From Octopus sinensis (lineage: Eukaryota), in assembly GCF_006345805.1 (NCBI RefSeq), contig NW_021826161.1:1-13447 (forward strand): a stretch of 13,447 nt of DNA. The letters are read 5' to 3'. Of this stretch, positions 1 through 9,000 are shown one piece after another. The position numbers were made by a program. Each line of letters begins with the position of its first letter. Position 1 is the stretch's first letter.

Positions 1-3000
1 ATATACATCTACAACACTCTATTAACGAACAAGATGTGGAGCAGTACAAGTGCCTTACCCTTTGTTGGTAGTGTAATGGCAGGTGCTGGAGTTTTCTCCA
101 CAACTGCGAGAAATAAAAGTAATATTTACATTTGCATGTGCAAAGATGTGTTATCAGGTCTAATTTCAACGCACACAAGTGAACAATACACTTTACCCTA
201 CATTACACTTCTCTTCCAATGTATAGCGAGAATTAAGGATTCTAACAAATCACTGAAGAATGCGTTCTAAAAATATGTACACCATTTAATAACTATGCAC
301 AGAATTAATCATTTCTACCTGCGCATCGATGCCAAATTGATAACTTTCGCTAAATAATGATATCATATGTGATAGCAATAAGATTGACGTCAGCACACAC
401 CGCTACTAAAATAGAAAATAGTTTGCGTTAATGTCTCACCTCTCTTTCTTGTCGTCTCAATTATAGGTGTCCTTCTAGTTGGTTCTGGTTGACCTCCTTC
501 CAACGAAAAATAATCCCAGAATTTAGTCAGCTCCAATCTCGTATAGATATGGAATACAATTTTATGCACTTGCACTCTCTTAATATTTAAATGCACTTAT
601 CTACATCTGTTTATCTATCTCACTAGCTATCATTCTGACCACATCTTTACCAAGTAGGCATACATCTACGCCAATATATAAATGCCCCAATATATAAATA
701 TATATACCTATATAAAAGTGAAAACATCTACTTACATATTTCAATATATTTATACGCTACATGTTCATTGATACTGGCCAACAATTTACATATATAGGCA
801 TAAACATGCATACACACACAAATATGCACATATATCGTTATATACGCATGTTTTATATGTATTCATCTATACATATAGACAACACGCGTATATAAGTTCA
901 TAGCTGTAGAATGAAATGTGGCGGTAGGAAATAGTGCATTAGATCACAGTTTTCTCAGTGTTAATCAATTCACAAATCAATACATGTATGAACCGGCACT
1001 CAATAACATATGCATTTCTCTAGGTTTTAGGTAAATTGAGAAAATTCCACATCATATCCATTAATCGAAATTCTATCAATTAAATGTTAGTTTCCCTTCA
1101 AAATTATGCAAGGAATAATGTGTATTAGATAAGCAATGTAAGACAACTGAAGCGCAACCTCATCCAGAAAGCTTTCATTTTTCCTTATATATACATACCG
1201 AAACATATACAAATGTAGATAGTTCTTCAGGAAGGAGCAAATTACTACACATCCTTGCAAAGAACTTTCTATAATATCTGGCGGTTCTAGACGATTTCAT
1301 CCAGTAAAGTATGTTAGATTCCAAAGCGCAATTTAAAATATTATTGAAATAATTATAATTACTGCAAGTGTAGCAAGTACATATTAGGGGACAATAAACA
1401 GCAATGTTTTGCATATCATGTGGTTTAGATGAAACAAGATCATAGACTGAATATCAAATGGATAAAGAATAAGATGATTGAAAGAAGGAGAATCAAATGG
1501 ATAGCCAGTTGACAGCATTAGTATGTTAACTGCATTATTTTAAGGAAGACAGTGAATTCCAAATTCTCTTGTAATTCATACTGATATTAGTAGGGCAGAT
1601 TCTACAGGAAACTTATCACAACCTACAAAATGTTATTTACTTGTTGCTACTTCAATCTGCTTAACACAGCAACATCAGACGTAGACAGTTTTACTTCTAA
1701 CGATGTCAAACGTTGTGAATGAGCATATAGAAGAGAAAGCAGCAAAATGTATGAATTTACATAAAACGGGCATCGAGTGAAGTTGTTAGGAGGCTTTGAG
1801 CAGCGTTAATTGTAAATACTTGCATGGAACATTGACTGAAAGTAACGCAATAACAGATCTTGTTAAAGATATCTTTGTTGAATATCTGTGATTATAGCTT
1901 TGATTAGTAACGCTTTAAAATAAAACACTGCTTTGCTAACATGCTAATTGCTATACCTGGGCAATACTGCTCAAATATCTTTCTTTCAGATTCGACAGTT
2001 CGTTCGTTGAAGTCAGTCACATAAACATGTTTTCGTCAACAGGTAATGAGGAAATCTGGCTCAATTCTGTAGTGTCACTTAGACCAATACCAATGGCATA
2101 TATGTGGATGCCTTCCTCTCTGGCTTTCACTGCTTCTGGAATAGTGTCGTAAGCATTGACGTTCGATACGCCGTCAGTGAGCAGTATGGCAATATTGGGA
2201 ACGGATGCCCTGTCACCATTCTCTGTGCTGAACATTACAGTCCGCATGGTGTTAAGCCCGCCGTAAGTGTTTGTACTGCCGTAAACATATGGAATTTGGA
2301 GGACTGCATCGATTACTTCTTGCTTTGTTTGGAAAGCATTCAAATGGAATTGGATTTTCACGTCTGAACTGTAAAGGACTGCACCGATTCGAACATTGCC
2401 ATTGTCAATGGAAGCAGCAGACACAAAATCAACAATGAAATTTAGCATTTTCTTGAAGTTTTCTTCTTGGACACTAGTTGATGAGTCCAAAATGAAGATG
2501 ATGTCAGATTCTGTACCGCCACAATCACCTGGAGAACATTAGGATAACTTATCACTTATCGAATAATCCACTGCTACCACATAAATCTACATTTCTATTC
2601 CGAAAATATCTCAACGAAGCACCACCACAACTTTACACAACATGTATGTCATATGAATATATATGCGCAAAAAACAACATTGGAAAACATTAAACAAAGC
2701 AAACTCTTGCCTGCCTCACACCTATCTGAAAACTCGTACGCGACGAAGTATCGAGAATTTCAAACAATACGTGACAGAAACGAGCAGAACGACAACAAAG
2801 TACTTGCACTTGATTCATTTCAGAAAACGACATTCAACCCACCAGCAACAGCTCCAGGTAAATAATATTCCATGATGACAAAACAAAATACACACAATAT
2901 GTATTAAGAATTTCGACACAAATACTTTTTACAGCAAGAAACTTGCAAACGTCACTCACTTCGAAAGTCCAACTAGTCAATCTGGCACAAAACGCAAACA

Positions 3001-6000: not shown

Positions 6001-9000
6001 CACCAGCAACAGCTCCAGGTAAATAATATTCCATGATGACAAAACAAAATACACACAATATGTATTAAGAATTTCGACACAAATACTTTTTACAGCAAGA
6101 AACTTGCAAACGTTCACTTCGAAAGTCCAAACTAGTCAACTGGCACAAAACGCAAACAAAATACACGAAACACGAAAAAACTATACGGCAAAGACAAAAG
6201 GTTAAGAATCTATACATATTTAGACAACAGCAGCATCGAATTTTGCTGATAATCAACAGAAGACATCTCTCACACGAAAACGTGGACACACAACAAAATC
6301 ATGCGCTCATATACATCTACAACACTCTATTAACGAACAAGATGTGGAGCAGTACAAGTGCCTTACCCTTTGTTGGTAGTGTAATGGCAGGTGCTGGAGT
6401 TTTCTCGACAACTGTGAGAAATAAAAGTAATATTTACATTTGCATGTACAAACGTGTTAGGTTTAGTTTAAATGCGCACATGAAAACAATATGCTTCACT
6501 ACCAATAAATAGTGAGAATTGGTGATTGTAATAAATCACTGAATAAAAACATTCTCATAATTTGTATACCATTTAAGAAATATTATATCTTAACATAGAG
6601 TTAATGTTTGCTAACTCCTAGTTGATGCACAATTGAAAACCATCAGTAAATAATGATATCAAAATGACAGAAATAAGACTGATTTTAGCACACAGAGGTA
6701 CTAAAATACAATATAGTTTATGTTAACATCTCACCTCTGTTTCTTATAGTCTCACTTATAGGTGTTCTTCTACTTCATTCTGGTTGACCTCCTCCCAATG
6801 AAAAATAATCCCAAAGTTTAGTAAGGTCAACTATCATATGCTTATTGAAAGCAATTTCATTGCTCTCATACACTCTAAGTATATACATCTGTTTATCTCT
6901 CTAACAAGCTCTCACTCTGCCCATACCTTTATCCAAGTAGACATCCATCTATCTGCATGTATATACGCCAATATATTAATGCACATATATATATATATAT
7001 ATACAAGTGAAAACTTATGTATTTACACATTTAAAGATATTTATACTCTACATATGCATTTTTACTGCCAATATGTATATGCATATATAATTGAAATTTA
7101 CAGAAAAATAAAAGATGAAGAAACGTTGGGAAAGTCTTTTACGTGAAGATCAACACAGTACTTTTACTTTATTCACTTCGGAAAACATTACCTTCAATTC
7201 AGTAGCAACAATTCCATGGAAAATCATATTCCATATTGACCAAAAAACAGTAAAATCACACAACATATATGAAGAATTCGCAAGGATTTAACATTGAGCA
7301 GGAATAATATTCACTCCAAAAAACTTTCCAATGTTCATTTGAAATGTCCAAAGCAAACAACTTGCGTGAAATGCAAAGAAAATATGAGATACGCCGTCAG
7401 TGAGCAGTATGGCAATATTGGGAACGGATGCCCTGTCACCATTCTCAGCAAAGGCAAAACAATAAAAATTTATGCATATATAGGCGCAGGAGTGGCTGTG
7501 TGGTAAGTAGCTTGTTTACCAAACCACATGGTTCCGGATTCAGTCCCTGTGTGGCACCTTGGCAAGTGTCTTCTACTATAGCCTCGGGCCAACCAAAGCC
7601 TTGTGAGTGGATTTGGTAGACGGAAACTGAAAGAAGCCCGTCGTATATATATATATGTGTGTTTGTGTGTCTGTGTTTGTCCCCCTACCATTGCTTGACA
7701 ACCGATGCTGGTGTGTTTATGTCCCCGTTACTTAGCGGTTCGGCAAAAGAGACCGATAGAATAAGTACTGGGCTTACAAAAGAATAAGTCCCAGGGTCGA
7801 GTTGCTCGATTAAAGGCGGTGCTCCAGCATGGCCGCAGTCAAATGACTGAAACAAGTAAAAGAGTAATATAGACAACAGCAATGAATTTTGCTGATAATC
7901 AAGATAATTCACTTCGATGATGAAACCCTCTTGTATGTAAATGTGTACACCCTTCAACAACTTGCACTCATATATTTCTACATCATTGTATCAACAAAGA
8001 ACATGTTGAGGAGTACAAGAGCCTTACCCTTTGTTGGTAATATAATGGCAGGTGCTGGAGTTTTCTCCAGAACTGTGAAAAATTATAGTAATGTTTACTT
8101 TTCCATGTGCAAATATGGTATGTCAGGTTTACTTTCTATGCACACCCATGAGCAATACACTTTATTCTCCTTTAGTTTTTATACCAACCAGTAGCAAGAA
8201 TTACTGGTTTTTAACAAATCTCTTAGCAAATACATTGTGAACATCTCTGCATGAATTAATACCTAATTTGATTGTGTAGCAAGTTAATATTAATAACCAA
8301 AGATTGATACCCAACTGAAAATTTTTCCTTAATATTGAAAATGAATGTGATAGAAATAAGATGGATGTAACACAACTAAGATAGAATATATATTATGTTC
8401 ACATTTCAACTCTCGTTCTACTAGTTTGTTCTGGTTGCCCTCCTTCAGAAGAATGTTAATTCCAAAATTCATTAAAGTCAAGCTCCATATAGTTTTTGAA
8501 CACAATTGTAGTGCTCTTTCACACTGTTAATATATAAATACGTTCATGCACATTTGTTTACCTATCTAACTATCACTTTACATATATCTCTATATAACTA
8601 GACATCTATCAATCTAGATAGATAAATATATATATAGGTCTATATATCAATGCATATATGCACATGTGAAAACATGTACTTACACATCTAAATATAATTA
8701 TACATAAATATGCATTTATATTGCCAATATATATATTTAGTTGAGGAATAATTCATGAGCATTTTATTTCAAATTTAAAAATGAATGCAGAAAGAAAATG
8801 CATTGGCAAAATGTTTCATGTTATTTAAAAGGGAGGTTTTATTCCTCTACAAGACAGTGTGTTCTAATTTTTTCATTTTATTGATTGTGTATTTTCAGAT
8901 CATGAAAATGGAATGTTAAGTGGACAAAACTGAGCATTTTCCACACCATTTGCTTTCTGCAATTAATCAAGGTGTTCATGCACCAAAGCCGCACATAAGA

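What the first reader, a model, noticed from the sequence alone, without database searches (positions are those of the whole stretch)
59..8072. Symmetric three-exon VWA cassette caught in birth-and-death evolution
Seen: each 3.15-kb unit carries exons of 570, 57 and 45 nt, all phase 1-1, and four units of different ages and states lie side by side (intact, frameshifted, VWA-deleted, transposon-interrupted). Established: symmetric phase 1-1 exons are the typical substrate of extracellular domain shuffling. Inference: any unit can be added, deleted or skipped without changing frame, so VWA copy number may vary between alleles or splice isoforms, giving a tunable-length matrix or adhesive protein. 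The micro-exons are invisible to the ORF track and easily missed by annotation.
Basis: partly seen in the sequence, partly recalled or inferred. Interest (0 to 1): 0.7.

Follow-up and report, generated by a model that had tools for sequence, protein, structure and literature searches.

The report
Octopus tandem VWA exon cassette array
This is a short octopus contig carrying a tandemly duplicated, partly decayed set of exons for a matrix-type VWA protein, a real but ordinary gene structure that the public annotation already models.

Summary
On the minus strand lies a 3.15-kb cassette of three exons: a 570-nt exon encoding one whole VWA domain, then 57-nt and 45-nt linker micro-exons. All are AG/GT-bounded and phase 1-1. 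There are two young copies (28 differences) and two old, decayed ones (76% and 68% identity).

Corrections:
- Only unit 2 is intact. Unit 1's VWA exon is 572 nt with three indels and a stop.
- Units 3 and 4 keep only the 45-nt exon. Their 57-nt copies are dead: one has an in-frame TGA, the other has lost its donor.
- Unit 3's 59-nt VWA piece is an out-of-order patch beside a SINE-like insert.
- Unit 4 carries a degraded mariner-like element.

The window matches an Octopus sinensis contig of the same length. So annotation did not miss the micro-exons.

One-exon VWA modules that can be skipped are known from collagen VI alpha-3. Length tuning by alleles or by VWA-exon skipping stays untested. 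The annotated reading frame starts inside the mariner and ends at the frameshift. The locus may therefore be a decaying edge of an array, or carry assembly errors. Interest is low to moderate.

The parts
1..3150 (-). Unit 1 (young copy). It runs off the left end of the contig.
   Evidence: It differs from unit 2 by 28 events, 14 substitutions and 14 indels, over 3170 aligned columns.
59..103 (-). Unit 1 45-nt linker micro-exon, phase 1-1 (VEKTPAPAITLPTK)
   Evidence: AG/GT bounded and identical to the unit 2 copy.
440..496 (-). Unit 1 57-nt linker micro-exon, phase 1-1
   Evidence: AG/GT bounded, with one synonymous difference from unit 2.
1957..2528 (-). Unit 1 VWA exon, 572 nt, frameshifted. 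The stop codon lies at 2019..2017.
   Evidence: The only differences from unit 2 inside the exon are three indels at 1977 (-1), 1998 (+4, GTTC) and 2020 (-1). Pfam VWA positions 1-160 of 174 are covered before the stop. The RefSeq reading frame ends here.
3151..6308 (-). Unit 2 (young copy, intact)
3209..3253 (-). Unit 2 45-nt micro-exon
3599..3655 (-). Unit 2 57-nt micro-exon (GQPEPTRRTPIIETTRKR). The RefSeq protein implies 3599-3658.
5120..5689 (-). Unit 2 VWA exon, 570 nt, phase 1-1, one whole domain
   Evidence: Pfam PF00092 E 1.8e-45, positions 1-173 of 174. DxSxS motif at residue 14 and Cys at residues 2 and 188. PDB matches: COL6A3 E 1.2e-119 and mussel PTMP1 E 2.7e-37.
6309..7969 (-). 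Unit 3 (old, 1.66 kb, VWA exon deleted)
   Evidence: 617/824 identical to unit 2 over the aligned part. The stretch matching unit 2 positions 3956-5952 is missing.
6367..6411 (-). Unit 3 45-nt micro-exon, intact and used by RefSeq
   Evidence: 44/45 identical and AG/GT bounded. It lies within the tract of near-identity to units 1 and 2, which reaches about 6440.
6735..6791 (-). Unit 3 dead copy of the 57-nt exon (in-frame TGA), skipped by RefSeq
7388..7446 (-). 59-nt piece of the VWA exon, 100% identical to 2165-2223 and 5326-5384, sitting out of order
   Evidence: It sits inside the homologue of unit 2's intron at 6163-6218.
7476..7866 (+). G+C-rich insert absent from the other units, SINE-like
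   Evidence: Its flanks rejoin the unit 2 intron sequence. No tRNA or Rfam family matched. The SINE label is recalled, not tested.
7970..10305 (-). Unit 4 (oldest), split by a transposon. No VWA exon.
   Evidence: 540/817 identical to unit 2. 9945-10305 matches unit 2 positions 3947-4293. There is no VWA match beyond 10305.
8028..8072 (-). Unit 4 45-nt micro-exon, intact and used by RefSeq
   Evidence: 42/45 identical, the conservation peak of the unit.
8410..8442 (-). Unit 4 33-nt version of the 57-nt exon, with its donor GT changed to TT
8728..9944 (+). Degraded mariner-like element
   Evidence: ORF 9181-9399 matches the SETMAR transposase domain (E 4.2e-8) and Mos1 (E 5.7e-7). Inverted ends of 47 nt, 77% complementary. 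A weak HTH_48 hit, E 0.021, below cut-off. The reading frame is broken over several frames.
9240..9300 (-). First coding exon of the RefSeq model (MSSEQASSDYGALTFVVFAQ plus 1 nt), inside the mariner and antisense to it
   Evidence: Exact mapping with a GT donor at 9239 and a stop two codons upstream of the ATG.

Best explanation
The window is a whole 13.4-kb unplaced contig of Octopus sinensis. Its minus strand carries the upstream edge of a tandem array of one exon cassette. The cassette has a single exon for a complete VWA domain with an intact metal-site motif, followed by two micro-exons that encode a Pro/Thr-rich linker.

Shown:
- The cassette was copied with its introns.
- Every exon is phase 1-1, so adding, losing or skipping a copy keeps the frame.
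- The copies have different ages. Two are about 99% alike. The two older ones have lost the VWA exon and the 57-nt exon and have taken up mobile elements.
- The public model splices over the dead parts and keeps the orphan 45-nt exons.

Inferred:
- The copies arose by unequal crossing-over or replication slippage between units.
- The product is a secreted 'beads on a string' chain of VWA modules that binds matrix partners through its metal site. This would resemble the N-terminal arm of collagen VI alpha-3 or the mussel thread protein PTMP1.
- Module number is set mainly by genomic copy number.

On this contig the frame holds one whole and one truncated VWA domain. What is seen here is more likely the decaying end of the array than its working core.
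For: Anatomy.

Domain: Pfam VWA E 1.8e-45 over 173 of 174 positions. DxSxS motif and terminal Cys pair. PDB matches to COL6A3 (6 matched stretches, E 1.2e-119) and PTMP1 (E 2.7e-37).

Source and gene model:
- XP_029654099.2 was seen on a contig of 13447 nt, the length of the window.
- It maps residue for residue to the window. The single exception, residue 21, is a codon split by an intron.

Relatives:
- Cuttlefish COL6A (77% identity) has near-identical tandem VWA domains with a short P/T-rich linker.
- Snail and mussel relatives carry 8 and 6 matched VWA stretches with P/T-rich linkers.

Precedent:
- The COL6A3 N2-N10 domains are each encoded by one exon, and N3, N5, N7, N9 and N10 are alternatively spliced (PMC7319802, passages).
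- VWA domains lie in single exons flanked by phase-1 introns in sponge aggregation factors (PMC5400394, passages).
Against: - No transcript data were available, so no junction is shown by reads.
- The RefSeq start codon lies in a mariner remnant. The 20-residue leader has only a 9-residue hydrophobic stretch after an acidic N-end, which makes a poor signal peptide.
- Unit 1 ends the frame early.
- The paralogous model (XP_029650176.1) is also frameshifted.
- No long octopus multi-VWA protein of this type appeared among the 17 hits of the 'longer' search.
- Half of the unit 1 / unit 2 differences are indels, which raises doubt about the assembly.
Confidence: 0.6

Rival explanations
1. Assembly artefact. 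The near-identical units 1 and 2, or at least unit 1's frameshift, come from errors or haplotype duplication in a long-read assembly and not from the genome.
For: - The contig is only 13447 nt and begins inside a unit.
- 14 of 28 differences are indels, mostly in short repeats or base runs. All 3 differences inside the VWA exon are indels within 45 nt, and there are 0 substitutions there.
- An O. sinensis assembly was made with PacBio and Hi-C (title seen in the reference list of PMC10318165). That RefSeq uses this assembly is recalled.
- The paralogous model also carries a frameshift.
Against: - There are also 14 substitutions, plus a 9-nt and a 4-nt indel, which are unlike simple base-run errors.
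- The window has no N.
- The older units 3 and 4 show that tandem copying is real at this locus.
Confidence: 0.3
2. Dead relic. The whole stretch is a transcribed or silent pseudogene fragment of a VWA array and makes no useful protein. The RefSeq model is a best-effort reading of it.
For: - The start codon is inside a degraded mariner and the leader is weak.
- There is a premature stop in unit 1.
- Two of the four units lack the VWA exon and have dead 57-nt exons.
- Mobile elements sit in units 3 and 4.
- No upstream exons were recognised in 10305-13447.
Against: - Unit 2 is fully intact, with good splice sites and an intact metal-site motif.
- The orphan 45-nt exon of unit 4 is 42/45 conserved against 66% overall and keeps both splice sites.
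- A model that joins four micro-exons suggests transcript support. How Gnomon builds such models is recalled, not checked.
Confidence: 0.35
3. This is a working gene for a matrix or adhesive protein whose VWA number varies between alleles and between splice isoforms.
For: - Symmetric phase for all three exon types.
- An annotated isoform pair at a paralogous locus differs only by the 45-nt exon.
- Precedent in COL6A3.
- VWA proteins are listed in an octopus skin-mucus proteome, with no link to this gene (PMC11431876, passages).
Against: - No evidence here for skipping of a VWA exon or for copy-number differences.
- Only one intact VWA exon on the contig.
- See also the points listed under the relic reading.
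Confidence: 0.25

Closest known systems
N-terminal VWA arm of collagen VI alpha-3 (COL6A3)
   Same: It has tandem VWA modules, each encoded by one exon, and several of them are skipped in isoforms without loss of frame (PMC7319802). The domains are arranged as beads on a string with linkers (PMC3919171). It is the best solved-structure match, E 1.2e-119 with 6 matched stretches.
   Different: - No collagen Gly-X-Y run exists in any frame of this contig.
- The linker here has its own two micro-exons.
- The units, introns included, are still about 99% alike, so the copying is recent.
- RefSeq's name 'collagen alpha-1(XIV) chain-like' rests on the VWA domain alone.
Mollusc multi-VWA proteins annotated COL6A, collagen VI-like or matrilin-like (cuttlefish, mussel, oyster, snail), and mussel PTMP1
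   Same: Identity is 50-77% over the whole domain. They have tandem VWA domains joined by short Pro/Thr-rich linkers. PTMP1 is a two-VWA protein with a solved structure (E 2.7e-37).
   Different: - The octopus models are short (140-445 aa) and end in frameshifts.
- The cuttlefish linker is about 25 residues against about 35 here.
- PTMP1's role in the mussel thread is recalled and was not tested.
Exon-shuffling modules with symmetric phase 1-1 (Patthy's rule), for example sponge aggregation-factor genes
   Same: A VWA domain sits within a single exon flanked by phase-1 introns, and repeats were made by duplicating exon blocks (PMC5400394).
   Different: This is within-gene tandem copying together with decay of copies. 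It is not shuffling between genes.

Membership tests
VWA domain (Pfam PF00092) | Profile match above the curated cut-off over the whole domain | tested here: met
   155.7 bits against a cut-off of 23.8, positions 1-173 of 174, for the unit 2 exon. 143 bits for unit 1 up to its stop.
VWA domain (Pfam PF00092) | Metal-ion site (MIDAS): DxSxS plus a later Thr and Asp | tested here: met
   DSSTS at residue 14. GSTNT and LLTDG are present in the printed sequence. The definition of the motif is partly recalled and is mentioned in PMC5400394.
Collagens VI / XII / XIV (the RefSeq name) | Triple-helical Gly-X-Y repeat region | tested here: not met
   0 runs of 4 or more G-X-Y in six frames of the 13447-nt contig. 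The gene could continue beyond the contig.
Collagens XII / XIV | Fibronectin type III domains next to the VWA domains | tested here: inconclusive
   Only 12 ORF translations were scanned against Pfam, 8 and 4. None matched FN3. Small exons would be missed.
Matrilins | EGF domains and a C-terminal coiled coil after the VWA domain | not tested
   No dedicated scan was run. Some database relatives carry EGF domains, but none was seen in the mapped RefSeq protein.
Symmetric cassette exons of the COL6A3 type | One domain per exon, with the same intron phase on both sides | tested here: met
   570 nt = 2 + 189 codons + 1. The 57-nt and 45-nt exons follow the same pattern.
Symmetric cassette exons of the COL6A3 type | Observed alternative inclusion of the VWA exon | not testable with these tools
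   No transcript data were available. Only the 45-nt exon differs between two annotated isoforms of a paralogous locus.
mariner/Tc1 element (the insert in unit 4) | Transposase similarity and terminal inverted repeats | tested here: met
   SETMAR transposase domain E 4.2e-8 and Mos1 E 5.7e-7. Inverted arms of 47 nt, 77% complementary, at 8722-8768 and 9912-9958.
mariner/Tc1 element (the insert in unit 4) | Intact transposase reading frame | tested here: not met
   The frame is broken into short ORFs in different frames. The Pfam match is below cut-off.
Birth-and-death evolution of tandem copies | New copies made while older copies are disabled or deleted at the same locus | tested here: met
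   Identity steps of 99%, 76% and 68%, with loss of exons and mobile-element insertions in the older units. This is at the level of exon cassettes, not whole genes.

The most novel reading that the evidence does not exclude
The decayed upstream units are not junk but a rebuilt gene front. A mariner remnant supplies the start codon and a hydrophobic leader. The orphan 45-nt exons of units 4 and 3 act as a spacer. The young units behind them vary in number between individuals and are skipped in some transcripts. This would give octopus a transposon-capped matrix or adhesive protein of adjustable length.
Probability: 0.08. Interest if true: 0.5.

Novelty: new member of a known kind. Interest (0 to 1): 0.25.

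Why it matters
If the array is expressed, it is a clean snapshot of how repeat number in a modular matrix protein grows and shrinks. Copying includes the introns, symmetric phase keeps the frame, and dead units are spliced over. The principle is textbook (exon shuffling, COL6A3), and the gene model is already public. The value is as an illustration and as a warning about annotation and assembly quality at cephalopod tandem repeats. It is not a new mechanism.

Tried and rejected
- Collagen identity: no Gly-X-Y run in any frame.
- tRNA or Rfam identity for the unit 3 insert: 0 tRNAs and 0 families at gathering score. One sub-threshold mir-2843 match, 20.3 bits against a gathering score of 93, is taken as chance.
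- A VWA remnant for unit 4 beyond 10305: none found by tblastn with three relatives or by sensitive blastn.
- Reading the 59-nt VWA piece as a leftover of the deleted exon: rejected, because it lies out of order inside an intron homologue.
- Pfam on six other ORFs at E<=0.01 gave nothing.
- A canonical splice that would give RefSeq's extra E at the VWA>57-nt junction: none exists in the sequence.
- One literature query failed on a term that was too short and was re-worded.

Not done:
- No search or fold was run with joined exons. The spliced model was handled exon by exon and by mapping the public protein onto the window.
- The micro-exon peptides (14 and 18 residues) are too short for the protein search tools.
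The chromosome-scale paralogous locus and other octopus genomes therefore stayed unchecked.
- Supplementary tables were closed. One example is the list of O. bimaculoides VWA proteins in PMC11291548, which may bear on whether this family has been catalogued.
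Full report
**What is in the sequence**

The window has no N and is AT-rich. Self-comparison shows a direct repeat with a period of 3150-3163 nt.
- Units 1 (1-3150) and 2 (3151-6308) differ by 28 events, 14 substitutions and 14 indels, over 3170 aligned columns.
- Unit 3 (from 6309) is 75.6% identical to unit 1 over its first 796 nt.
- Unit 4 (from 7970) is 68% identical. It is split, and its continuation at 9945-10305 matches unit 1 positions 787-1133.
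- Near-identity to the young units runs on into unit 3 as far as about 6440. The latest duplication therefore copied the block '45-nt exon, VWA exon, 57-nt exon'.

**Exons**

The gene lies on the minus strand.
- The unit 2 VWA exon is 5689..5120 (570 nt), with ...ccag before it and gtatag after it. It reads as 2 nt + 189 codons + 1 nt.
- Its translation covers Pfam VWA positions 1-173 of 174 (E 1.8e-45). It has DSSTS at residue 14 and Cys at residues 2 and 188.
- The 57-nt exon (3655..3599) and the 45-nt exon (3253..3209) are likewise AG/GT-bounded and phase 1-1. They encode a basic, Pro/Thr-rich linker.
- Unit 1 has the same micro-exons at 496..440 and 103..59.
- Unit 1's VWA exon is 572 nt. 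Its only differences from unit 2 are three indels within 45 nt, and the frame stops after ENMFM.

**The old units**

- Unit 3's copy of the 57-nt exon (6791..6735) keeps its splice sites but has an in-frame TGA.
- Unit 4's copy (8442..8410) is 33 nt long and its donor is TT.
- That 33-nt form shares a five-residue run with the first half of the cuttlefish linker. The 24-nt difference may therefore be an insertion in the younger units and not a deletion in unit 4.
- The 45-nt exon is intact in both old units: 44/45 identical in unit 3 and 42/45 in unit 4. It is the conservation peak of unit 4, where identity overall is 540/817.
- Unit 3 lacks the stretch matching unit 2 positions 3956-5952, which includes the VWA exon.
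- The 59-nt VWA piece at 7388-7446 is 100% identical to both young exons. It sits inside the homologue of an intron, next to a 390-nt G+C-rich insert at 7476-7866. I read it as a templated patch and not as a remnant of the deleted exon.
- Unit 4 carries a 1.2-kb insert at 8728-9944. It has inverted ends and an ORF similar to mariner transposases (SETMAR domain E 4.2e-8, Mos1 E 5.7e-7). Its frame is broken.
- No VWA trace lies beyond 10305.

**Whose sequence it is, and what is already annotated**

- The nearest named relative of the VWA exon is an Octopus sinensis protein, 96% identical over the part it covers.
- Its 90% cluster holds XP_029654099.2, 'collagen alpha-1(XIV) chain-like', 445 aa, seen on a contig of 13447 nt. 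That is the length of this window.
- This protein maps to the window exactly. Its exon order is:
  1. a first coding exon at 9300..9240, inside the mariner and antisense to it;
  2. the 45-nt exon of unit 4;
  3. the 45-nt exon of unit 3;
  4. the VWA, 57-nt and 45-nt exons of unit 2;
  5. the VWA exon of unit 1, up to its stop.
The fourth differs by one extra residue (E), which would need a 60-nt exon with a GG acceptor. I could not explain this.
- At a paralogous locus on a 32.9-Mb scaffold, isoform X1 contains the 45-nt exon and isoform X2 lacks it. Both end in a frameshifted VWA domain.
- I ran no search with joined exons. The spliced model was examined exon by exon and by mapping the public protein onto the window.

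**What it most likely is**

This is the upstream, decaying edge of a tandem array of a VWA cassette.
- Relatives in cuttlefish, mussel, oyster and snail are multi-VWA proteins with short Pro/Thr-rich linkers.
- The best solved-structure matches are collagen VI alpha-3 and the mussel thread protein PTMP1.
- By analogy, the product would be a secreted chain of metal-dependent binding modules. This is inferred, not shown.
- The name 'collagen' is not earned on this contig, since no Gly-X-Y run exists in any frame.

**Doubts**

- The annotated leader is a poor signal peptide.
- The frame ends early.
- Half of the differences between the young units are indels. An O. sinensis assembly was built from PacBio reads (title in a reference list), so the frameshift may be an assembly error. 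The duplication itself may be one too, though that is less likely.
- Alternatively, the locus is a relic.

**Comparison with what is known**

- In COL6A3, the N2-N10 domains are each encoded by one exon, and N3, N5, N7, N9 and N10 are alternatively spliced (PMC7319802, passages).
- In sponge aggregation factors, VWA domains lie in single exons between phase-1 introns (PMC5400394, passages).
- O. bimaculoides is reported to have 111 VWA proteins with 150 domains (PMC11291548, passages).
- My two searches on octopus or cephalopod VWA arrays listed no paper describing this locus. That is weak evidence, because supplements were closed and most subscription journals are not held.

**Verdict**

The principle is known and the gene model is already public. 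The 'tunable length' idea is plausible but untested. Interest is 0.25.

Noticed in passing
window 9240-9300 (-), inside 8728-9944: The first coding exon and start codon of the RefSeq model lie inside a degraded mariner-like element, antisense to its transposase remnant. This is either an exonised transposon or a prediction artefact.
   Followed up: partly
window 7388-7446: A 59-nt piece is 100% identical to the VWA exons of units 1 and 2. It is inserted out of order in an intron homologue of the 76%-identical unit 3, with short similarity at its left edge. It looks like a templated repair patch.
   Followed up: partly
window 7476-7866 (+): A G+C-rich insert of about 390 nt is absent from the other units, and its flanks rejoin cleanly. 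I recall it as a common octopus SINE-like repeat, but no tool confirmed this (no tRNA or Rfam match).
   Followed up: partly
window 3655-3660 (-): The RefSeq protein has an extra Glu at the VWA>57-nt junction. This implies a 60-nt exon with a non-AG (GG) acceptor, and the AG-bounded exon does not give it.
   Followed up: yes
window 12530-13000: A G+C-rich stretch (49% against about 32% around it) begins with an ATC run. It is probably another interspersed repeat. ORFs there had no Pfam match.
   Followed up: no
window 10475-10604 and 12236-12265: A 30-nt tandem repeat (3.5 copies), an adjoining 16-nt repeat, and an (AT)15 microsatellite.
   Followed up: no
window 3599-3655 and 440-496 (-): The 57-nt linker exon encodes RR and RKR, which are dibasic sites. 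These are absent from the cuttlefish linker. They could mark protease processing between modules, or mean nothing.
   Followed up: no
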